Origin: a virus
Virus record (IMG/VR): IMGVR_UViG_3300006147_000054
Length of the DNA: 39,845 bases
Reading direction: 5' to 3' (one strand)
In this document: piece by piece, positions 3,033 to 23,764 of the stretch
How positions within the stretch are numbered: position 1 is the stretch's first letter
Layout of the letters: each line of letters starts with the position of its first letter
The notes under the pieces: model-generated
What the model saw: the letters and a program-made list of their open reading frames with translations, nothing else
Database searches by the model: none
What the model was told of the DNA's origin: nothing
Program-made: the position numbers and the translations under genes

Positions 3033-4142
3033 CTAAATTTCATCTAAAATTCCAACAATTTGATTATCGGATTTTTGCTTTAATTCATCTAACATGTAGG
3101 CATAGGTTGATGCCGTGATACTCATATTTGAATGACCTAATCTTTTACTAATTGAATATAAGTCGACTCCTTTAAAGAGTAACATAGCAACGTGAGTATG
3201 TCTAAGGCTGTGAAAATGAAAACCATTTTTTTCAATATGTAACTTTTTAAGCTGCTTCCTTAGAACTTTATTGACGGCACTAGAAGTCGGAATGGTGCCA
3301 TCTGGTCCAATAAATAGCCGCATTGTACCATTCTTTTTTAATTGGAGAAGAATATCGAGCAATTTTTGATCTACAGCAATAACTCTAGTGGAGGAACGGT
3401 TTTTGGTTTTTTTATTAATTTCATCAGAATCATAGTTTACAATTTTCTTTTTATCATAATCCCATGATTTAGTGATATGAATTTGTTTATTTTTGAAATC
3501 AATATCATTCCATGTGAGAACTCTAATTTCCCCTGGTCGCATACCAGTATAAATTATTGTCAAAAGCATATATCGACTGATGTAAGTAGCATTAATTTTA
3601 TCTTTTAGTGATTTTACTAGTTGTTGAACTTGTTCAAAATTTAAGTAATCTATTTTTCTTGTTTTTTCTTCATTCCAAATTAAATTAATACGGTCAGTGA
3701 AGTTTTTTCTAATTATACCTTCACTGATAGCGTCTTTGGCACAGGAACGAATAGAACCGTGTGTTTTTTTGACTGTATCCTTAGCATGAGTTGCACCATA
3801 ATCATTCATAAATTTTTGATATTTTAGGCGATTAATTTTAGAGATTTTAATATTTGGAAAATTTTTTGTTAAAAGATCATAAATAATTCTATACCGCCGT
3901 TTAGTATTACCAGATTTTCCAGGAGTTTTATAGGTCTCATACCAAGTTTTAAAATATTCAGCAAATATGGGGTCTTGATTAGAAATGTTTTCTTCATCTT
4001 TTGCTACTTCCATTTCATTAGCCCACTTTTGAGCATCCCTTTTAGTAGCAAAACCACTTTTAGTTTTATATTTTCTCTCATCATTAGAGTACCAAGATAT
4101 TTGAACTGACCAAGTTTTACCTCTTTTTTTGATATAAGCCAT
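3033..4142 (-). CDS. int: Tyrosine recombinase (phage integrase)
   Basis: 369 aa. Contains the catalytic signature TGMRPGE...HSLRHTH...LGHSNMSITASTYAYM (R, H-x-x-R, H, Y). Confidence 0.92.
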   Translation of the reverse strand: MAYIKKRGKTWSVQISWYSNDERKYKTKSGFATKRDAQKWANEMEVAKDEENISNQDPIFAEYFKTWYETYKTPGKSGNTKRRYRIIYDLLTKNFPNIKISKINRLKYQKFMNDYGATHAKDTVKKTHGSIRSCAKDAISEGIIRKNFTDRINLIWNEEKTRKIDYLNFEQVQQLVKSLKDKINATYISRYMLLTIIYTGMRPGEIRVLTWNDIDFKNKQIHITKSWDYDKKKIVNYDSDEINKKTKNRSSTRVIAVDQKLLDILLQLKKNGTMRLFIGPDGTIPTSSAVNKVLRKQLKKLHIEKNGFHFHSLRHTHVAMLLFKGVDLYSISKRLGHSNMSITASTYAYMLDELKQKSDNQIVGILDEI

Positions 4143-4296
4143 ATTTAGTCCTCTTTTTTGTCTGTGATTTTAAAAGTTCTAAAAGTTTGTGATAGTCCTT
4201 ATCACTAATATCTCTGTTCTTGTTCTCTGTGGTAGGATTGCATGCTATGATCCCTAACTTTCTAAGTTTTTCTCTATTGCTAAGCATTTTTGTCAT
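4117..4296 (-). CDS. Possible small basic ORF (59 codons) overlapping the integrase start
   Basis: GGAG is adjacent to the first ATG (4296) and 9 nt before the second ATG (4287). No recognisable domain. Below the ORF-track size cutoff. Confidence 0.25.
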   Translation of the reverse strand: MTKMLSNREKLRKLGIIACNPTTENKNRDISDKDYHKLLELLKSQTKKRTKYGLYQKKR

Positions 4297-4326
4297 CTCC
4301 TTTCAGAACATCAGTTCTTGAAACTG

Positions 4327-4352
4327 TAAAAATAAAACCAGCGTTAACTGGT
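4327..4352 (-). terminator. Intrinsic terminator after the membrane-protein gene
   Basis: ACCAG / CTGGT hairpin followed by a T-rich run on the minus strand, directly after the stop at 4360. Confidence 0.5.
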
Positions 4353-4359
4353 CGTTATC

Positions 4360-5010
4360 TTAATAAAATTTGTATTCGTTATAGTTAGTAAATCTAGAAT
4401 GACCTAGAGCTTTATTTTCCCCTGTGTAAAAGGCAAGATAAATACCACGTTTTTGATCTTTGGGTTGGATATCCATCCCAGAAGTTGCCATAGAACGCAA
4501 AACTAAATTCGAAATAGAATTACCAACTTTAGTTTTTGTTGCATCATCTAAGTTCATAAAGCTTTCGTCAACATAAACATAGGCTTGGGTATCACTCTTA
4601 ATATCAATTTTTTCAACATAAGTTGAATAATCATAATTATGATTACCATTATTGGCATCATCTTGATCGCCTTTTAAATCTTGGAATAATTGATCGTTAG
4701 CCTTTTTTATTTGGACATTACTCTCATTATTGGAATTTGAGTCTTTATTGTTATCTTCTTTACTAGATTTTTGTGAAGAACTGTAATTATTGGTAGCCTT
4801 TTTCGAAATCTGATTGGATTTTGAAGGAGAGATGAAAATAGTTACTAACATTAGAACCAAAGATATTGCAGAAATAGCTCCTGAAAGCTTTAAAGATTTC
4901 TTTGATAAAGTTGGTTGCTTTTTTTCTTTAATAGACTGCCATGCAAAATAGAGTGGAAGAGCTGAAATTACAAAGATAAGCATAAAGATCCACGTAAACA
5001 TATTACTCAT
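4360..5010 (-). CDS. Two-TM membrane protein with an extracytoplasmic globular domain; superinfection-exclusion or lysogenic-conversion candidate
   Basis: The start at 5010 is preceded by AGGAG. It has two N-terminal TM segments, then an S/N-rich linker, then a globular domain of about 110 aa. It sits between int and the repressor operon. Confidence 0.6.
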   Translation of the reverse strand: MSNMFTWIFMLIFVISALPLYFAWQSIKEKKQPTLSKKSLKLSGAISAISLVLMLVTIFISPSKSNQISKKATNNYSSSQKSSKEDNNKDSNSNNESNVQIKKANDQLFQDLKGDQDDANNGNHNYDYSTYVEKIDIKSDTQAYVYVDESFMNLDDATKTKVGNSISNLVLRSMATSGMDIQPKDQKRGIYLAFYTGENKALGHSRFTNYNEYKFY

Positions 5011-18163: not shown

Positions 18164-19364
18164 ACAAAAACAAGTGCTTCATTCATATTTACATGATGAT
18201 TGGAAAATTATGATCTTATCCGGCGCTTTCAGAGCTGGTAAAACAGTAATGAATAATTATATCTTTGTGATGGAGCTAAAACGTATTGCTAAGCTTGCCA
18301 AGAGTAGAAAAGATCCACATCCTCAATATATTTTGGCAGGGTATAGCTCTAATTCCATTTACACTAACGTTATCAGTGCGATTGAGTCGTATTTTGGTAT
18401 CACGATGAAAACTGATAGACATGGACATTATCATTTGTTTGGAGTAGATATAGTGCCATCTTACACAGGATCAATCCGTGGGGTTGGATCAATTCGTGGT
18501 ATGACAAGTTACGGTGCTTATATAAATGAAGCAAGTTTATCTACTCATGACGTCTTTCAAGAAATATTACAACGTTGTTCTATTGAAGGGGCACGTATTA
18601 TTTGTGATACCAACCCTGATATACCAACGCATTGGCTAAAAACAGATTATATTGATAACCCAGATCCTAAAGCACGCATTAAATCTTTTACTTTTACTAT
18701 TGATGACAACACCTTTTTATCAAAGGATTATGTCGAATCAATTAAAGCAGCAACCCCTAAAGGGATGTTTTATGATCGGGGTATTTTAGGACAATGGGTT
18801 ACAGGTGATGGTATTGTTTATAGAGATTTTGATAAAGACAAAATGGTTATCTCTAGGGAACAAGTTCCAGATGATTTAGAGTATTACGTTGGCGTTGACT
18901 GGGGTTATGAACACCCTAATCCGATCATTCTTCTTGGTGATGATAAGGACGGTAATACGTATGTGCTAGCTGACTACACACAGAAACATAAATTCATCGA
19001 TTATTGGATAAGGATTGCGAAGAACTTGCAGGCAAGTTTTGGACGCAACCTTATTTTTTATGCTGATTCTGCTCGCCCTGATAACGTAAATGAATTTCAA
19101 TCTAATGGTATTAACTGTATAAACGCCAATAAGAATATCATGCCGGGAATTGAGTGTGTGGCTAGAAAAATGCGTATCGGTCAATTTTATGTGGTCGATA
19201 CAGCAGCAAGTGGATTACTAGAAGAAGTTTATCAGTATGCTTGGGACGACAAAACAGGTTTGCCACTCAAAGAAAATGATGTAAGACACAATGACCGACT
19301 AGATGCTATTAGATACGCAATTTACAGTAGAAATAAGAAGGGAGGTTTCGTGCCTTGGAATTAG
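18135..19364 (+). CDS. terL: Terminase large subunit (PBSX/Terminase_3-like)
   Basis: 409 aa with the Walker A-like motif SGAFRAGKT. Follows terS and overlaps it. Confidence 0.85.
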   Translation: MGLDQILTHKQKQVLHSYLHDDWKIMILSGAFRAGKTVMNNYIFVMELKRIAKLAKSRKDPHPQYILAGYSSNSIYTNVISAIESYFGITMKTDRHGHYHLFGVDIVPSYTGSIRGVGSIRGMTSYGAYINEASLSTHDVFQEILQRCSIEGARIICDTNPDIPTHWLKTDYIDNPDPKARIKSFTFTIDDNTFLSKDYVESIKAATPKGMFYDRGILGQWVTGDGIVYRDFDKDKMVISREQVPDDLEYYVGVDWGYEHPNPIILLGDDKDGNTYVLADYTQKHKFIDYWIRIAKNLQASFGRNLIFYADSARPDNVNEFQSNGINCINANKNIMPGIECVARKMRIGQFYVVDTAASGLLEEVYQYAWDDKTGLPLKENDVRHNDRLDAIRYAIYSRNKKGGFVPWN

Positions 19365-20764
19365 AAGCGTTAAAAAAATTAATCCAGAACACTTCTTCAA
19401 GTCGTAATGATTTGATTAATAACTACAAACAAGCAGTGAATTATTATGAAAATAAGACTGATATCACTACCAGAAACAACGGTAAAGCTAAGCTTAATAA
19501 GGAAGGTAAAAAAGACCCATTAAGAAGTGCTGATAATCGCATTCCATCAAACTTTTATCAGTTGTTAGTAGACCAAGAAGCAGGGTATGTTGCTTCTGTC
19601 TTTCCTGATATTGATATAGGGAAAGATGCGGACAACAAGAAGATCTTAGATGTTTTAGGCGATGATAAAGCTTTAACGCTCAACAGTTTGTTAGTAGACA
19701 GTTCAAATGCTGGTCGAGCTTGGTTGCACTACTGGATTGATGACGACAACAATTTCAGATATGGCATTATCCAACCTGATCAGATCACGCCTATCTATGC
19801 GACAACGCTTGATAATAAATTGCTTGGTGTACTTAGAAGTTATAAGCAGTTAGACCCAGAAGATGGTAAGTACTTCACAGTTCATGAATATTGGACCGAT
19901 AAAGAAGCACAATTCTTCAAGACAAGTACAACTAACAGCGAAATCATTGAGCCTTACAACATTATTACTTCTTACGATTTAAGTGCTGGTTATGAAACAG
20001 GACAGTCAAACACCTTAAAACACAACTTTGGACGTGTTCCTTTTATCGAATTTCCTAAAAATAAGTACAGATTGCCTGAGCTTAACAAGTATAAGGGCTT
20101 AATTGATGCTTACGATGATATCTACAACGGGTTTATCAATGATCTCGATGATGTTCAGACTGTAATTCTTGTCTTAACCAATTATGGCGGTGCTAGCTTA
20201 AAGCAGTTCATGAACGATTTAAGAGAGTATAAGTCCATTAAGATTAACAACGCAGGCAACGGTGATAAGAGTGGCGTTGATAAGCTACAAATTGACATTC
20301 CTGTTGAAGCCCGTGACGATGCACTTAAGATAACCCGTGATAACATTTTCTTGTTTGGGCAAGGAATTGATCCAGCCAACTTTGAAAGTTCAAATGCTTC
20401 TGGTGTAGCAATCAAAATGCTATATTCTCACTTAGAATTAAAAGCAGCTAAGACGCAAACTTATTTTGAACACGCAATTAACGAGCTTGTCCGTGCGATT
20501 ATGCGATATCTCAACTTTTCAGATGCTGACAAGCGTCATATATCACAACATTGGACGAGAACTAAGGTAGAGGATAGCTTAACTAAGGCTCAGATCGTCT
20601 CTACAGTAGCCAATTACAGTTCAAAAGAGGCAGTTGCTAAAGCAAATCCTATTGTTGATGATTGGCAACAAGAACTGAAAGACTTAGCCAAAGATAGACA
20701 AGAAAATGATCCCTATGCTGAAGATTTAAACGGCACAGGCGTACAAAACAACAATGAAGAGTAG
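19355..20764 (+). CDS. Portal protein (SPP1 gp6-like)
   Basis: 469 aa directly after terL. TTG start with GGGAGG upstream. Size and position are typical. Confidence 0.8.
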   Translation: MELEALKKLIQNTSSSRNDLINNYKQAVNYYENKTDITTRNNGKAKLNKEGKKDPLRSADNRIPSNFYQLLVDQEAGYVASVFPDIDIGKDADNKKILDVLGDDKALTLNSLLVDSSNAGRAWLHYWIDDDNNFRYGIIQPDQITPIYATTLDNKLLGVLRSYKQLDPEDGKYFTVHEYWTDKEAQFFKTSTTNSEIIEPYNIITSYDLSAGYETGQSNTLKHNFGRVPFIEFPKNKYRLPELNKYKGLIDAYDDIYNGFINDLDDVQTVILVLTNYGGASLKQFMNDLREYKSIKINNAGNGDKSGVDKLQIDIPVEARDDALKITRDNIFLFGQGIDPANFESSNASGVAIKMLYSHLELKAAKTQTYFEHAINELVRAIMRYLNFSDADKRHISQHWTRTKVEDSLTKAQIVSTVANYSSKEAVAKANPIVDDWQQELKDLAKDRQENDPYAEDLNGTGVQNNNEE

Positions 20765-22673
20765 TGAATACTGGAAAAAACGTGCTTTATTTGCTAAAAA
20801 AAAGCAACTAGAAGCGTCAGCAGACTATGAAGCTGCTATGCAGTCACGCCTAAGAAAGTTAGAGCATGATATCGAAAAAGAGGCGTTAGGATACTTACAA
20901 AGATATGCTAATGAGAACCATGTAGGGCTTAAACAGGCTGCTAGCGTCTTGGGTAATATCAACTCAACTAAGTGGTCTATGACCCTAGAAGAGTTTGAAA
21001 GAAAAGCCAAAGCTGGTGGCTATGAGAAAGAATTAAATGCTGAATACTACAAGAGTCGCATATTTAGACTTCAACAATTACATGAACAGATGGTTGAGTT
21101 TTCTAAAAAGTACGGCATGGCTGAACAATTGCGAATGCAAACAGGCTTAGCTAAACAGTATCAGAACAGTTACTATTTAGATGCTTACAACAAGTATCGT
21201 GCTACTGGTCAATTAGATATCAAACTAAATCACTTTAACGAACAGCAACTAGAAAACATTGTTTATCGACCTTGGAAAGGTAGTGATTTCAGTAAGCGTA
21301 TTTGGAAAGAATACACGGAAGTCCTACCTGATGAGTTAACCGATGCACTTTTAAGAGGTACTTTGTTTGGTTACTCTCCAAGCAAAGTCGTTAGAATGAT
21401 GCGAGACAGATTCCAAAAAGTTTCCGAAAGAGATTTACATAGACTAGTTATCACTGAGATGGGGCATACTGCAGAAGAAGCTACAGCTCAGTTTTATAAA
21501 GACAGTGATATTGAACAGTATCAGTATTTAGCAACATTAGAAAGTCATACTTGTGACCAATGCGCCCACTTAGATGAGCGCATTTTTAATGTCAAAGATA
21601 AAAGAGAAGGAATTAATTATCCGTTAATTCATCCCTATTGTAGATGTACCACAGTTCCATATGACAAAAACTTGCCAGATATTGAAACACGTTGGAGTCG
21701 TGATCCTGAAACTGGTAAAGGGCATTATGTATATCGCAATGCGTTGAGCTATAGAGACTGGAAAAAGATTAGTAATGTTAAAATTCTTAGTCTAAATATG
21801 TTGCCTAGTCTTAATGCTCCAAGAAAGAACAAATTTGTACCCAAGACTTTGAAACATATTCATGATGTTAGTATTTCTGATTACATTGAGCAAAGATGGG
21901 CAGAAAGGCCAACATCAATGCCGCCAACTGCTGAAACAAGAAAAGCAGTAAAAGATAATATTACAAAGCAACTGAATAAAATAGCAGAACTTAGTTCATT
22001 ACCAACTGTTGATGTTCGAATGAGAGTTAAAGCTGAAAATTTAGAGAGTGTTTTAAATAATGGATTTAAAAATCAATTTGAAACTAATACTAGTGGTGGA
22101 ACGCTAAATACTTCATATAGAAAAGAAGCTACTGAGAAATTATTTAATATCCCTAAAAAAGACGTTGATAAATTCAAACCATCAGACTTTGAAAAGTATG
22201 GTTATCTATGGGATCACAGAGAAAATGAGCCAATAGACAACGCATTAAACCAATACGGTGATGTTATTATAGTTTTTAAAAAGGACATCAAAACTAAAAC
22301 TACTTACTTTCATGGAGATAGCTTAGGTATTAAAGGGTCATTAAATCAAAGCTTAAACAGGACAGCAAAAATAGGTGAGCCTAACCCTTCATATCTAAGA
22401 AACTTGTGGCGTTTTGATGCTGACGATGGTTCTAGAATGAAGCAAAAAGTTTGGAATGATCCATCACGCAAGTTGAGTAAGGATTATACTAGTATTAACC
22501 AGTTCATTAAAAATAAAGCTAAGGATTATACCGAAGCTCAAATACATGGTAAATTAACAGTAGATAGCATTGACTATCTTGAAATACCAAAAGACAAGTT
22601 AACTAATTCACTAGTGAAGAAATTGAAAGAATCAAATATAAAATATAAAGTACGAGGTGACAGCAATGATTAA
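20754..22673 (+). CDS. MuF/SPP1-gp7-like head morphogenesis protein fused to an unassigned C-terminal domain of about 335 aa
   Basis: The MuF core ends at HTCDQCAHLD...YPLIHPYCRCTTVPY (aa about 165-303). Residues 304-639 have no domain I can name and are more AT-rich. Confidence 0.8.
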   Translation: MKSSEYWKKRALFAKKKQLEASADYEAAMQSRLRKLEHDIEKEALGYLQRYANENHVGLKQAASVLGNINSTKWSMTLEEFERKAKAGGYEKELNAEYYKSRIFRLQQLHEQMVEFSKKYGMAEQLRMQTGLAKQYQNSYYLDAYNKYRATGQLDIKLNHFNEQQLENIVYRPWKGSDFSKRIWKEYTEVLPDELTDALLRGTLFGYSPSKVVRMMRDRFQKVSERDLHRLVITEMGHTAEEATAQFYKDSDIEQYQYLATLESHTCDQCAHLDERIFNVKDKREGINYPLIHPYCRCTTVPYDKNLPDIETRWSRDPETGKGHYVYRNALSYRDWKKISNVKILSLNMLPSLNAPRKNKFVPKTLKHIHDVSISDYIEQRWAERPTSMPPTAETRKAVKDNITKQLNKIAELSSLPTVDVRMRVKAENLESVLNNGFKNQFETNTSGGTLNTSYRKEATEKLFNIPKKDVDKFKPSDFEKYGYLWDHRENEPIDNALNQYGDVIIVFKKDIKTKTTYFHGDSLGIKGSLNQSLNRTAKIGEPNPSYLRNLWRFDADDGSRMKQKVWNDPSRKLSKDYTSINQFIKNKAKDYTEAQIHGKLTVDSIDYLEIPKDKLTNSLVKKLKESNIKYKVRGDSND

Positions 22674-23061
22674 GGTTTTAGCTAAAAATAAAGAACAATA
22701 TATCATTGCAATTGATTACCGTTTATATTTCGTAGACAAAAACAATAACGTATATTCAATTAGTTCAATAAAATCTAGCCTTAGACTTGATAATTTTAAA
22801 TATGGAGATTTTACTAGTGAATATTCTGAAGAAAAACTTCAAAGTATTAGAATTAAAACTAAAAAGTTTGATCCTGAATTTGATCAATATAAAAAAGATG
22901 TTATGGAAGATGGCAATATGACTGAAGACCAGTTTAACTTATTCGTAAAAAAAGGTTATGAACAGGATTTAGCCAGCTTTAATGAAATATGTGGTAAAGA
23001 AATATTCCATAATATGAAAGTTGACAGTGCTTGGGTTAATAAGTATTTAGATTATTTGTAG
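22666..23061 (+). CDS. Hypothetical 131-aa protein, a candidate immunity or partner protein of the MuF C-terminal domain
   Basis: The ATG at 22666 is preceded by GAGGTG and overlaps the MuF stop by 8 nt. It is followed by a terminator. Confidence 0.55.
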   Translation: MIKVLAKNKEQYIIAIDYRLYFVDKNNNVYSISSIKSSLRLDNFKYGDFTSEYSEEKLQSIRIKTKKFDPEFDQYKKDVMEDGNMTEDQFNLFVKKGYEQDLASFNEICGKEIFHNMKVDSAWVNKYLDYL

Positions 23062-23084
23062 GATTTAAAAATTGATAATTGATT

Positions 23085-23123
23085 AGAGAAATATTGCTTA
23101 TTACAGTATTTCTCTTTTATTTT
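23085..23123 (+). terminator. Intrinsic terminator after the MuF cassette
   Basis: Perfect 9-bp stem AGAGAAATA / TATTTCTCT followed by TTTATTTT. Confidence 0.65.
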
Positions 23124-23206
23124 GTCCTGAGTAAGACATTAAACTACTCTTTTTGTATGCCCTTATGAGAGGCGAACTCGTATAAAACGTGTGAAAGGAT
23201 AGAACA

Positions 23207-23764
23207 ATGAAAAGAAAACAATTAGAAGAGCTTGGATTACAAGAAGAGCAGATTAAAAAGATCATGGATTTAAACGGCGAAGACATTCAAAATGCTAAGG
23301 ATAAAGCAAGTGCTAGCAATGCTGAAATCTTAGAAGAGAATGAAGCTCTTAAGTCCCAGATGAGTGAAAGAGATAAGGATTTAAAGAAGTTGCGCTCTCA
23401 AGTCAAAGATAATGAAGACTTGACTAAGCAATTTAATGATTTAAAGAGTAAGTATGACAAGGATACGGCTGACCTTACTCAAAAACTTGCTACTAATCGT
23501 TTAAATAGTGCAATTGACCAATCATTAAGCAAAGCTAACGCTCGTAATAATAAGGCTGTTAAAGGTCTTTTGAACATGGACGAAATTAAGCTTGGTGATG
23601 ATGGTAATTTAACTGGTTTAGACGATCAAATTAAATCTTTGCAGAAATCTGATGGTTATTTATTTGATGAAGGTAGTAAACAAGATTACCAACCAAATAA
23701 TGGAAAACCCGCTAACGCTGATCCAGTCCAAGCAATGGTTGATATATTTAAAGGAGACAAATAA
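23207..23764 (+). CDS. Scaffolding protein (GP20-like)
   Basis: 185 aa, coiled-coil. The N-terminus LEELGLQEEQIKKIMDLNGEDIQNAK is typical. It precedes the capsid gene. Confidence 0.75.
   Translation: MKRKQLEELGLQEEQIKKIMDLNGEDIQNAKDKASASNAEILEENEALKSQMSERDKDLKKLRSQVKDNEDLTKQFNDLKSKYDKDTADLTQKLATNRLNSAIDQSLSKANARNNKAVKGLLNMDEIKLGDDGNLTGLDDQIKSLQKSDGYLFDEGSKQDYQPNNGKPANADPVQAMVDIFKGDK

What the first reader, a model, noticed from the sequence alone, without database searches (positions are those of the whole stretch)
21663..23123. MuF head protein carries an unassigned 335-aa C-terminal domain followed by an overlapping small gene and a terminator: toxin/immunity-like or injected-effector cassette
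The MuF/gp7 core ends at CRCTTVPY (aa about 303), but the ORF continues for about 335 more residues. That extension contains a conserved-looking core (VLNNGFKNQFETNTSGGTLNTSYRKEATEKLF ... KYGYLWD ... YGDVIIVFKKDIKTKTTYFHGDSLG) that I cannot place in a named fold. I have only a vague, unverified impression of resemblance to a DUF-type domain, and the ADP-ribosyltransferase R/STS/ExE motifs are not convincing. A 131-aa ORF overlaps the stop by 8 nt and is followed by a terminator, and both are more AT-rich than the MuF core. MuF proteins fused to variable C-terminal toxin domains with adjacent immunity genes are an established class of phage-borne polymorphic toxins. Because MuF proteins are packaged in the head, the domain could be delivered into the host with the DNA.
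Basis: partly seen in the sequence, partly recalled or inferred. Interest (0 to 1): 0.7.

Follow-up and report, generated by a model that had tools for sequence, protein, structure and literature searches.

The report
Phage head protein carrying SopF-like ADP-ribosyltransferase
The unassigned tail of this Lactobacillus prophage head protein is a divergent ADP-ribosyltransferase of the family of the Salmonella effector SopF. It sits in a swappable cassette with its own small partner gene, so it is a new flavour of the known phage "MuF toxin plus immunity" systems.

Summary
A 639-aa MuF/SPP1-gp7 gene (20754-22673) is overlapped by 8 nt by a 131-aa gene (22666-23061), which is followed by a terminator. 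This stretch is AT-rich (GC 0.30 against 0.37 in the MuF core).

The unassigned part (aa 357-639) is a DUF3626/SopF-like ADP-ribosyltransferase (ART) fold:
- The AlphaFold model (pLDDT 84) matches SopF crystal structures best (Foldseek E 1e-7), then DarT, CopC/OspC3 and CteC.
- Y501 and E594 align by profile with SopF residues Y240 and E325. Y482 corresponds to Y224 by motif and spacing only. All three are invariant in 110 relatives.

An exhaustive search finds about 3,200 sequence clusters with this domain. Of 76 relatives sampled, 58 are fused to MuF-type head proteins.

In phages with at least 83% identical MuF cores, bases 21788-23113 are exchanged as a block. I found about nine different C-terminal ends (seven extensions, two short forms). 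Each of the seven extensions examined has its own small overlapping ORF. The short form has none.

Degraded ART fragments next to intact small genes occur at a non-prophage site in Lactobacillus chromosomes, as expected for an immunity gene.

Activity, packaging, target and neutralisation are inferred, not shown. MuF-ART toxins with small immunity proteins are already known (Bxa). The ART clade and the partner family are new to this class.

The parts
19355..20764 (+). Portal gene (SPP1 gp6-like). It lies immediately upstream of the MuF gene and overlaps its start. Context.
   Evidence: Pfam SPP1_portal E 5.8e-91; ORF list.
20754..22673 (+). 639-aa fusion gene: an N-terminal MuF/SPP1-gp7 minor head protein and a C-terminal SopF-like ART module.
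21336..21653 (+). MuF core domain (aa 195-300).
   Evidence: Pfam PF04233 E 6.1e-15; TIGR01641 E 4e-22.
21788..23113 (+). Exchangeable cassette (about 1.3 kb, GC 0.296): ART module, small ORF and terminator hairpin. DNA homology to phages jlb1, Lj771 and KC5a stops at 21787 or 21730 and resumes at 23114 or 23121.
   Evidence: blastn; junction alignments; GC.
21822..22670 (+). DUF3626/SopF-like ADP-ribosyltransferase-fold module (aa 357-639).
   Evidence: Sub-threshold Pfam DUF3626 hit (25.6 bits against a cut-off of 27). 59 of 76 relatives hit DUF3626. AF2 pLDDT 83.7, pTM 0.85. Foldseek SopF 7dn8_A E 1.3e-7, TM 0.54.
22197..22199 (+). Tyr482 codon. Invariant in 110/110. Proposed equivalent of SopF Tyr224 (nicotinamide contact).
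   Evidence: Equivalence is inferred from the KYGYL/PIYAAL motif and spacing; it was not directly aligned.
22254..22256 (+). Tyr501 codon (QYG). Invariant in 110/110. Aligned to SopF Tyr240 (nicotinamide contact).
   Evidence: Profile alignment to 7dn8_C; spacing 85 = 325-240; SopF residue roles; conservation.
22533..22535 (+). Glu594 codon (YxEAQIHG). Invariant in 110/110. Aligned to SopF Glu325 (N-ribose contact, catalytic).
22654..22659 (+). Ribosome-binding site GAGGTG of the small gene, inside the end of the MuF gene (translational coupling).
   Evidence: Sequence.
22666..23061 (+). 131-aa partner gene and candidate cognate immunity or neutraliser. Predicted N-terminal beta-meander plus helical bundle. 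No known family or fold.
   Evidence: Always follows the 639-aa gene in the 8 contigs shown.
23085..23125 (+). Intrinsic terminator: a 12-bp stem and 7-nt loop, then TTTTATTTTG. The hairpin belongs to the cassette. The T tract and what follows are conserved in all relatives.
23207..23764 (+). Scaffolding protein gene, the first conserved gene after the cassette. Context.
   Evidence: Pfam Phage_scaffold E 2.7e-44.

Best explanation
The 639-aa gene encodes a portal-associated MuF/SPP1-gp7-type minor head protein. Its last 283 residues are a divergent ADP-ribosyltransferase of the DUF3626/SopF family. The enzyme module, the 131-aa gene that overlaps its stop codon and a terminator hairpin form a 1.3-kb cassette (21788-23113). 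This cassette is swapped by recombination among closely related Lactobacillus myophages, as in a polymorphic-toxin system.

Proposed mechanism. During late gene expression the fusion protein and the small protein are made together by coupled translation. The small protein binds the ART module and keeps it inactive in the producing cell. The MuF part takes the fusion into the procapsid through the portal. The ART then reaches the next cell with the DNA, or is released at lysis, and uses NAD+ to ADP-ribosylate a bacterial target.

Shown here: the domain fold and family, conservation of the NAD-site residues, the cassette boundaries and exchange, the conserved pairing with a small ORF, and orphan fragment-plus-small-gene modules.

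Inferred: catalytic activity, the target, neutralisation by the small protein, packaging and delivery.
For: - Family. The window protein hits Pfam DUF3626 just below the cut-off (25.6 against 27 bits, E 7.6e-6). A profile of the domain finds 3216 cluster representatives at E<=1e-3. Of 76 relatives, 59 hit DUF3626, and 58 carry Phage_Mu_F (42) or Phage_min_cap2 (16). One relative scores 208 bits against DUF3626.
- Fold. The AF2 model has pLDDT 83.7 and pTM 0.85. The top PDB matches are SopF 7dn8_A and 7dn9_A (E 1.3e-7 and 3.2e-7, prob 1.0, TM 0.54-0.56). The next 13 ranks are all NAD+-using transferases (DarT, CopC, OspC3, CteC); below E about 1 the matches are mostly unrelated folds.
- Active site. 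A profile against PDB sequences puts SopF first and aligns QYG with SAYG (Y240) and YxEAQIHG with YIEAHIHG (E325). SopF Y224 and Y240 bind nicotinamide and E325 binds the N-ribose; mutating them largely blocks activity (PMC11937434). Y482, Y501 and E594 are invariant in 110/110 relatives.
- Cassette. DNA homology to jlb1, Lj771 and KC5a breaks at 21787 or 21730 and resumes at 23114 or 23121. About nine different C-terminal ends sit on MuF cores that are 83-96% identical. In jlb1 and Lj771 the same position holds a classical ADPrib_exo_Tox domain; the jlb1-type hit is just under Pfam's cut-off.
- Partner gene. Each of the seven alternative extensions examined has its own ORF of 52-131 aa with an RBS at or overlapping the stop codon. 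The short KC5a form has only a 39-nt gap. Of 25 distinct phage MuF-DUF3626 clusters, 20 have such an ORF. Orphan 3' ART fragments that lack the Tyr residues sit next to intact homologues of the small gene at a non-prophage chromosomal site.
- Precedent. Bxa is a MuF-ART toxin neutralised by the small binding protein Bsi (PMC11699363). MuF toxins are usually followed by a small ORF (PMC5576092).
Against: - The window protein itself does not reach Pfam's gathering score for DUF3626.
- Sequence-only comparison with SopF is weak (E 0.1).
- The first position of the ART triad (His, Arg or Ile on strand 1) could not be assigned. The strand-1 Arg424 is conserved in only 82/110 relatives.
- SopF needs a eukaryotic ARF GTPase to be active (PMC10333799). 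It is unclear what, if anything, replaces it in bacteria.
- The small protein matches no known immunity family or fold.
- Homology of the small protein to the roughly 100-aa partners of other DUF3626 modules is not significant.
- A group of 913-aa MuF-DUF3626 proteins has no same-strand downstream ORF.
- No experiment here bears on toxicity, binding or packaging.
Confidence: 0.65

Rival explanations
1. The module is an injected take-over or anti-defence enzyme rather than a toxin. It would resemble T4 Alt, modifying a specific host protein, or acting on DNA or RNA as DarT does, to favour infection. The small protein would then be a holding inhibitor or chaperone needed only until packaging.
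For: MuF/gp7 proteins are portal-bound head components, and MuF fusions have been proposed as injected effectors (PMC5512222; PMC9503650). The next-best structural neighbours after SopF are the ssDNA ADP-ribosyltransferases DarT. The gene sits in the late head operon.
Against: Cassette exchange with about nine alternatives, and orphan fragment-plus-small-gene modules in chromosomes, are the signature of toxin-immunity conflict rather than of a fixed take-over function. Short MuF forms without any extension are common in near-identical phages, so the module is dispensable for infection.
Confidence: 0.2
2. The module is released at lysis and acts outside bacteria, for example on gut epithelial cells. 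This is reported for the Bacteroides prophage MuF-ART Bxa and is how SopF acts in eukaryotic cells.
For: SopF, the only characterised family member, acts on a eukaryotic V-ATPase and needs ARF GTPases. Bxa was first described as a host-cell-directed fitness factor. The hosts are gut lactobacilli.
Against: The partner gene with coupled translation and the orphan modules argue for a target inside bacteria. The family is very widespread in phages of many environments, in actinomycete genomes and in giant viruses. Bxa itself is also antibacterial.
Confidence: 0.07
3. The extension is a catalytically dead structural or DNA-binding appendage of the head protein, and the small ORF is an unrelated moron or assembly factor.
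For: The Pfam score is sub-threshold for the window protein. The small protein has no recognisable function. The cassette carries its own terminator, as morons do.
Against: Seven residues are invariant across 110 sequences of 20-37% identity, including the counterparts of all three SopF NAD-contact residues. Such conservation is not expected of a dead domain. The small ORF is translationally coupled and co-varies with the domain type. No promoter-like site above chance precedes it, and the one site nearby would remove its RBS.
Confidence: 0.08

Closest known systems
Bxa / Bsi / BAH of Bacteroides stercoris prophage (MuF-ART polymorphic toxin; PMC11699363)
   Same: An N-terminal MuF head domain is fused to a C-terminal ADP-ribosyltransferase. 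The gene lies in the head-morphogenesis module of a gut-bacterium prophage. Small adjacent ORFs are present, one of which (Bsi) inhibits the toxin by binding. [quoted passage not shown]
   Different: Bxa is described as a promiscuous arginine-specific ART and has an ARH-type hydrolase as a second immunity protein. Here the ART is of the SopF/DUF3626 clade (Tyr/Tyr/Glu site, no match to ADPrib_exo_Tox). No hydrolase gene is present, and the single partner belongs to no described family. I did not compare the Bxa sequence or structure directly.
SopF (Salmonella T3SS1 effector; PDB 7DN8, 7DN9; Pfam DUF3626)
   Same: It is the best structural match (E 1.3e-7, TM 0.54) and belongs to the same Pfam family by transitivity. 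Tyr240 and Glu325 align with invariant residues here, and Tyr224 corresponds by motif and spacing only.
   Different: SopF is a stand-alone secreted effector that modifies Gln124 of eukaryotic ATP6V0C and is activated by ARF GTPases. Here the domain is fused to a phage head protein in a Gram-positive host, is only 13-14% identical, and has a bacterial partner gene. The target and any cofactor are unknown.
MuF polymorphic toxins (Jamet et al. 2017, PMC5576092) and Apk2 (PMC12226406)
   Same: The MuF gene lies directly after the portal gene in a temperate phage of Firmicutes. The C-terminal domain is variable, and a small ORF under 150 aa follows (seen for 89% of MuF toxins against 25% of short MuFs). 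For Apk2 both toxicity and specific binding immunity have been shown experimentally.
   Different: DUF3626/PF12294 does not appear in the main text or the held supplementary tables of the 2017 catalogue. Proteins like this one would have been counted there as having a C-terminal extension without a known domain.
MuF-ART fusions of Lactobacillus phages Lj771 and jlb1 (ADPrib_exo_Tox type)
   Same: The MuF core is 85-87% identical at the DNA level, the insertion point and downstream junction are the same, and a small overlapping ORF follows (52 and 65 aa).
   Different: Their C-terminal domain is a classical exoenzyme-type ART (Pfam PF03496; in jlb1 the match is just below Pfam's cut-off). It is unrelated in sequence to the window's module, and their partner ORFs are unrelated to the 131-aa protein.
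DarT (of DarTG toxin-antitoxin systems)
   Same: It is the second-best structural neighbour (E 1.2e-3, TM 0.39-0.50) and is a bacterial ART toxin with an adjacent antidote gene.
   Different: DarT modifies thymidine in ssDNA, and its antidote DarG is a macrodomain hydrolase. The match is much weaker than to SopF, and the partner here is not a macrodomain.

Membership tests
MuF polymorphic toxin family (Jamet 2017) | N-terminal MuF-superfamily domain | tested here: met
   Pfam PF04233 56.4 bits against a cut-off of 29.6; TIGR01641 78.6 bits against 39.65.
MuF polymorphic toxin family (Jamet 2017) | Gene immediately downstream of the portal gene in the head or packaging module of a tailed temperate phage | tested here: met
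   The SPP1_portal gene at 19355-20764 overlaps its start, with terminase upstream and scaffold and capsid genes downstream. The same gene pair lies on contigs up to 635 kb. A relative with the same cassette lies inside a 285-kb Lactobacillus intestinalis scaffold, and Lj771 is a prophage. I did not verify the integrase in the window.
MuF polymorphic toxin family (Jamet 2017) | C-terminal domain varies between close relatives while the N-terminal part is conserved | tested here: met
   About nine C-terminal types (362 to 639 aa proteins) sit on MuF cores 83-96% identical. The DNA breakpoints are defined.
MuF polymorphic toxin family (Jamet 2017) | Small ORF (<150 aa) directly downstream, specific to the toxin type | tested here: met
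   A 131-aa ORF overlaps the stop codon by 8 nt. Each of the seven extensions examined has a different small ORF, and the short form has none.
MuF polymorphic toxin family (Jamet 2017) | C-terminal domain is toxic and the small protein neutralises it | not testable with these tools
   This needs expression and rescue assays. The only indirect support is the set of orphan fragment-plus-small-gene modules.
DUF3626 / SopF-like ADP-ribosyltransferases (Pfam PF12294) | Match to the Pfam model above its gathering score | tested here: inconclusive
   The window protein scores 25.6 bits (domain alone) or 23.5 bits (full length) against a cut-off of 27. Relatives linked by the domain profile pass it clearly: 59 of 76 match at E<=1e-3, with the best at 208 bits.
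DUF3626 / SopF-like ADP-ribosyltransferases (Pfam PF12294) | ART fold resembling the SopF crystal structure | tested here: met
   Foldseek: 7dn8_A E 1.3e-7 and 7dn9_A E 3.2e-7, prob 1.0, TM 0.52-0.56, using a model with pLDDT 83.7.
DUF3626 / SopF-like ADP-ribosyltransferases (Pfam PF12294) | NAD+-contact residues equivalent to SopF Tyr224, Tyr240 and Glu325 | tested here: met
   Y501 aligns with Y240 and E594 with E325. Y482 is matched to Y224 by motif and spacing only. All three are invariant in 110/110 relatives. I could not superimpose coordinates.
DUF3626 / SopF-like ADP-ribosyltransferases (Pfam PF12294) | NAD+-dependent ADP-ribosylation of a substrate | not testable with these tools
   Requires biochemistry.
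R-S-E exoenzyme-type ARTs (Pfam ADPrib_exo_Tox, as in Lj771 and jlb1) | Match to PF03496 with Arg / Ser-Thr-Ser / Glu-x-Glu motifs | tested here: not met
   The window protein gives no PF03496 hit at E<=1. The conserved motif is Y-x-E-x-Q-x-H-G, not E-x-E. Lj771 hits PF03496 above its cut-off at the same position, and the jlb1-type extension hits it just below the cut-off (21.7 against 23.4 bits).
DarT (DarTG) | Close structural or sequence similarity to DarT and an adjacent macrodomain antitoxin | tested here: not met
   Only a weaker fold match (E 1.2e-3, TM 0.39). No macrodomain was found, and the partner has no Pfam or PDB match. PADLOC gives no hit.

The most novel reading that the evidence does not exclude
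SopF-like (DUF3626) ADP-ribosyltransferases are primarily a phage weapon. They would be carried in the capsid on MuF proteins, singly or in tandem arrays, and injected with the DNA to ADP-ribosylate a conserved bacterial target by a chemistry not yet seen in phage-host conflict (for example glutamine modification as in SopF, or nucleic-acid modification as in DarT). Each would be held in check by a fast-evolving, previously undescribed family of small binding proteins. Bacteria would also keep these small proteins as orphan genes to disarm incoming phages. On this reading the Salmonella effector SopF is a domesticated offshoot of this phage family.
Probability: 0.25. Interest if true: 0.72.

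Novelty: new variant of a known kind. Interest (0 to 1): 0.5.

Why it matters
MuF-fused toxins are abundant in gut phages, yet only two enzyme types (Apk2 and Bxa) have been characterised. About two thirds of MuF C-terminal extensions had no assigned domain in the 2017 catalogue.

This locus assigns one such extension to the SopF family. Until now the only characterised member of that family was a eukaryote-directed Salmonella effector that depends on a host GTPase. The family turns out to be very large in phages (about 3,200 clusters at 50% identity), and 58 of 76 sampled relatives are fused to MuF-type head proteins.

The locus offers a compact, testable pair in a tractable Lactobacillus phage group. 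Natural controls exist on the same backbone: a classical ART, other unknown domains, and no domain at all.

Finding the bacterial target would show what this ART clade does outside eukaryotic cells, and whether small orphan immunity genes protect bacteria against injected phage effectors.

Tried and rejected
- Sequence-only searches of the C-terminal 336 aa and of a 3-sequence profile against PDB sequences found nothing. Only a 26-sequence profile put SopF first, at a weak E of 0.1.
- NCBIfam, PHROGs and PADLOC gave no informative hit for the module or the small protein.
- The word-indexed homologue search found only 3 relatives of the module and 2 of the small protein. The exhaustive profile search was needed to reach the family.
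- I tested whether the 131-aa protein is homologous to the roughly 100-aa ORFs downstream of other DUF3626 modules. None of the tests was significant: hmmsearch E 0.59, hhalign probability 16% and P 0.0016, and jackhmmer converged on close relatives only. The L. delbrueckii partner gave nothing either. I therefore treat these ORFs as positional analogues, with homology unproven.
- The metagenome scan for the small protein added no new diversity.
I repeated it with proteins from the third homologue search.
- The small-protein model has no significant PDB neighbour (best E 0.56).
- I did not attempt a linker-fused pseudo-complex, because the tool reports no interface measures.
- An independent promoter for the small gene is not supported. 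Promoter-like sites are at chance level (6 found against 5.0 expected), and the nearest one would start transcription inside the RBS.
- Membership in the R-S-E class of ARTs is rejected.
- Literature searches for DUF3626, for SopF together with MuF, and for "SopF-like" found no description of this fusion.
Full report
**1. The observation**

The window carries a late head-gene block: terminase, SPP1-type portal (19355-20764; Pfam SPP1_portal E 5.8e-91), a 639-aa ORF (20754-22673), a small ORF, and then the scaffold gene (23207-23764; Phage_scaffold E 2.7e-44) and the major capsid gene.

- The 639-aa protein has a MuF domain at aa 195-300 (PF04233 E 6.1e-15; TIGR01641 phageSPP1_gp7 E 4e-22). The CRCTTVPY motif ends at Y303.
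- The small ORF starts at ATG 22666, behind the ribosome-binding site GAGGTG (22654-22659). It overlaps the MuF stop codon by 8 nt and encodes 131 aa.
- A 12-bp hairpin at 23085-23115 followed by TTTTATTTTG is the only terminator-like site in the region. Shuffled sequence gives 0.2 such sites.
- GC is 0.372 in the MuF core, 0.296 in 21788-23113 and 0.258 in the small ORF.

**2. Where the module begins**

Three close phages have MuF proteins that are 68-87% identical overall: Lactobacillus phages phi jlb1 and KC5a and prophage Lj771. They are nearly identical to the window protein up to about aa 326 (Lj771, KC5a) or about aa 345 (jlb1). After that they differ completely.

- KC5a stops at 384 aa.
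- jlb1 (510 aa) and Lj771 (524 aa) carry another domain at this position. In Lj771 it is a classical ADPrib_exo_Tox ART (PF03496, E 1e-6). The jlb1-type extension hits the same Pfam family just below its cut-off (21.7 against 23.4 bits, E 1.4e-4).
- At the DNA level, homology ends at window 21787 (jlb1) or 21730 (Lj771, KC5a). It resumes at 23114 or 23121 with 82-94% identity.

The variable block is therefore about 21788-23113. It holds the C-terminal module, the small ORF and the terminator hairpin. The jlb1 block also ends in a hairpin of its own, whereas Lj771 and KC5a have none.

**3. What the module is**

Pfam gives one near-threshold hit: DUF3626 (PF12294), 25.6 bits against a cut-off of 27, E 7.6e-6. 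DUF3626 is the domain found in the Salmonella T3SS1 effector SopF (PMC6682159). SopF is an ADP-ribosyltransferase that modifies Gln124 of ATP6V0C, is activated by ARF GTPases, and has solved structures 7DN8 and 7DN9 (PMC10333799).

The word-indexed search found only three relatives of the module. An exhaustive profile search found far more: 3216 cluster representatives at E<=1e-3 and 1374 at E<=1e-10. Most are proteins of 550-650 aa with the match at the C-terminus.

Of 76 such proteins:
- 59 hit DUF3626;
- 42 hit Phage_Mu_F;
- 16 hit Phage_min_cap2.

So MuF fused to DUF3626 is a common architecture. Some giant MuF proteins carry two to five tandem copies of the domain.

An AlphaFold2 model of aa 357-639, built on 26 diverse relatives, has pLDDT 83.7 and pTM 0.85. 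Foldseek against the PDB gives these matches:

| PDB match | E-value |
|---|---|
| SopF 7dn8_A (prob 1.0, TM 0.54-0.56) | 1.3e-7 |
| SopF 7dn9_A (prob 1.0, TM 0.54-0.56) | 3.2e-7 |
| DarT | 1.2e-3 |
| CopC | 4.7e-3 |
| OspC3 | 1.7e-2 |
| CteC | 2.6e-1 |

Ranks 3-15 are all NAD+-using ADP-ribosyl or riboxanyl transferases. Further down, at E above about 1, the list is mostly unrelated folds with a few more NAD+-site proteins among them.

Against predicted viral structures, the best matches are a "minor capsid protein", a "DUF3626 domain-containing protein" of a Nodularia phage, large proteins of Bacillus phages SP-15 and CP-51, and several giant-virus proteins.

**4. The active site**

A 26-sequence profile searched against PDB sequences puts SopF first, at a weak E of 0.1. 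It aligns QYG with SopF SAYG, and Y-x-E-A-Q-I-H-G with SopF Y-I-E-A-H-I-H-G. The spacing of that Tyr and Glu in the SopF chain is 85 residues, which equals 325-240.

A paper that used these mutants states that E325 contacts the N-ribose, that Y224 and Y240 contact the nicotinamide of NAD+, and that mutating them largely blocks activity. Its primer sequences confirm the local SopF sequence, including PIYAAL around Y224 (PMC11937434).

The equivalents in the window protein are:
- Y501 for Y240 and E594 for E325, both directly aligned;
- Y482 for Y224, by the KYGYL/PIYAAL motif and spacing only.

All three are invariant in 110 of 110 relatives that share only 20-37% identity. So are G502, T517, S523 and Y592. 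R456 is conserved in 108/110, Q596 in 109/110 and H598 in 106/110.

I could not assign the first position of the classical ART triad. The strand-1 Arg424 is conserved in only 82/110 relatives. The R-S-E class is excluded: there is no PF03496 hit and no E-x-E motif.

I conclude that the module is an ART-fold domain of the SopF clade with an intact NAD+ site. Activity itself is an inference.

**5. Cassette behaviour**

I searched IMG/VR with the MuF core (aa 1-345) and found 24 loci with 83-96% identical cores. Together with the window, their C-terminal ends fall into about nine types:
- 639 aa (this one);
- 625, 553, 534 and 499 aa, with unassigned domains;
- 524 and 510 aa, with classical ARTs;
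- short forms of 380-384 aa and 362 aa;
- one 396-aa protein that looks like a truncated Lj771-type ART.

Each of the seven extensions examined is followed by its own ORF of 52-131 aa with an RBS. That ORF overlaps or abuts the stop codon of the MuF gene, and the seven ORFs are unrelated to one another. The KC5a-type short form has only 39 nt before the conserved junction.

This one-domain, one-small-gene rule on a constant backbone is the defining pattern of polymorphic toxin-immunity cassettes. [quoted passage not shown]

**6. The small gene**

The 131-aa protein has no Pfam, NCBIfam, PHROG, PADLOC or PDB-sequence match.
- A 98%-identical copy (annotated as an L. taiwanensis hypothetical protein) lies directly after a 639-aa MuF gene in 7 of the 8 contigs shown. 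In the eighth, the upstream gene is cut by the end of the contig.
- A 34%-identical homologue follows the 59%-identical MuF-DUF3626 gene of an L. intestinalis prophage.
- Its AF2 model (pLDDT 81.2, pTM 0.71) is an N-terminal four-strand meander followed by a helical bundle. It has no significant PDB neighbour (best E 0.56). It is therefore not a macrodomain or an ARH-type hydrolase. If it neutralises the ART, it does so by binding.

Across 25 distinct (80% identity or less) phage MuF-DUF3626 clusters, 20 have a same-strand ORF of at least 60 aa with an RBS that starts 28 nt before to 63 nt after the stop codon. This holds even for stand-alone 265-aa DUF3626 genes. Twenty-five of these ORFs form one BLAST-linked family of about 100 aa.

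Homology of that family to the 131-aa protein is suggestive by layout and a shared [FY]-G-x-F motif, but it is not significant. One group of 913-aa proteins in other phages lacks such an ORF and has a convergent 113-aa ORF instead.

**7. Orphan modules**

A non-prophage site in Lactobacillus chromosomes carries, in order, MerR, MFS, DUF4811 and a 70-aa HTH_59 gene.
- In L. intestinalis this site also holds a frameshifted 3' remnant of the ART module, followed by an intact 130-aa homologue of the small gene. A Cas2-exonuclease fusion lies nearby.
- In other samples the same site has a 109-aa ORF equal to the last 85 or so residues of the ART, which lacks the two Tyr residues. It overlaps an intact 139-aa homologue, P0159, which was seen on 16 contigs.
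- A third variant, P0158, is a fusion of an ART remnant with the small protein.

Retention of the small gene while the enzyme decays is what is seen for orphan immunity genes of polymorphic toxins. It is the best indirect evidence here for a protective role.

**8. Mechanism**

Shown here: the fold and family, the conserved NAD+ site, the fusion to a portal-adjacent MuF/gp7 protein, the cassette exchange, the coupled small gene and the orphan modules.

From established knowledge:
- MuF/gp7 proteins are minor head components, and MuF fusions are thought to be carried in the capsid (PMC5512222; PMC9503650).
- Two MuF toxins have been characterised experimentally. Apk2 is a (p)ppApp synthetase with a hydrolase and a binding immunity protein (PMC12226406). 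Bxa is a MuF-ART that ADP-ribosylates arginines and is neutralised by the hydrolase BAH and the small binding protein Bsi (PMC11699363).

Inferred for this locus: the ART is made late together with its inhibitor, is taken into the head through the MuF part, and acts on a bacterial target after delivery or release. Neither the target nor the chemistry can be predicted. SopF modifies a glutamine, while the next structural neighbours modify ssDNA (DarT) or arginine (OspC3, CopC).

An independent promoter for the small gene is not supported. Whether the prophage expresses it is an open question. The cassette's own terminator would fit such expression but does not show it.

**9. Novelty**

The kind of system is known: a MuF polymorphic toxin, and even a MuF-ART with a small immunity protein. 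Two things are new.
- The ART clade. DUF3626/SopF-like domains do not appear in the text or the held supplements of the MuF catalogue. No paper in the searchable library links SopF or DUF3626 with phages or MuF. Automatic UniProt names do already flag DUF3626 in a phage protein.
- The partner family, which is undescribed.

The finding also shows that the SopF family is overwhelmingly phage-borne. I rate it a new variant of a known kind, of moderate interest.

Noticed in passing
L121-L128 and L132 (KC5a type); window 21822-21850; L003 3600-3655: The short 384-aa MuF proteins of KC5a-type phages end in ...VPKTLE*. These are the first codons of the DUF3626 module (window: FVPKTLKH), and the DNA is about 75% similar up to that point. 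The short form therefore looks like a deletion derivative of a DUF3626-bearing ancestor. P-K-T-L is nearly invariant at the start of the module in distant relatives.
   Followed up: partly
Proteins P0008, P0034, P0039, P0044, P0075, P0137: Giant proteins of 1000-4500 aa carry two to five tandem copies of the DUF3626-like domain. Several also have an N-terminal Phage_Mu_F domain. This recalls the multi-ART polyvalent proteins described for another ART clade.
   Followed up: partly
L094 3438-4159; L108 3700-4420: A non-prophage site in Lactobacillus chromosomes (MerR, MFS, DUF4811, HTH_59) holds a degraded or truncated 3' fragment of the ART, followed by an intact homologue of the small gene. 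In L094 a Cas2-exonuclease fusion gene lies 1.5 kb away.
   Followed up: yes
L112, L113, L114, L129 (about 3960-4900 in each): Four further C-terminal extensions sit on the same MuF core (proteins of 499, 625, 553 and 534 aa). None has a Pfam assignment; L114 gives only a faint RadC-like hit at E 0.003. Each has its own small overlapping ORF of 56-85 aa. These are more unassigned candidate toxin-immunity pairs.
   Followed up: partly
L001 2501-4033, L002 2501-4075, L003 2501-3655: RefSeq names the MuF genes of phages jlb1, Lj771 and KC5a 'head maturation protease', as does PHROG 595. No protease domain was detected in them or in the window protein, so the label looks like an annotation carry-over.
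   Followed up: partly
L013 5237-5560: In the L. intestinalis-type relative, the cassette holds an extra ORF of about 60 aa after the small gene and its terminator. The ORF is hydrophobic and probably membrane-spanning, and it lies before the conserved junction.
   Followed up: no
BFVD hits: The same fold appears in giant eukaryotic viruses (Bodo saltans virus, Yasminevirus, Klosneuvirus, Tupanvirus, mimivirus Kroon) and, more weakly, in iridovirus IIV-6 422L. The clade therefore crosses from phages to viruses of eukaryotes.
   Followed up: no
L038-L050 (for example L039 2045-5122): A group of 913-aa MuF-DUF3626 proteins in a different phage lineage has no same-strand downstream ORF. Instead, a convergent 113-aa ORF overlaps the stop codon.
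   Followed up: partly
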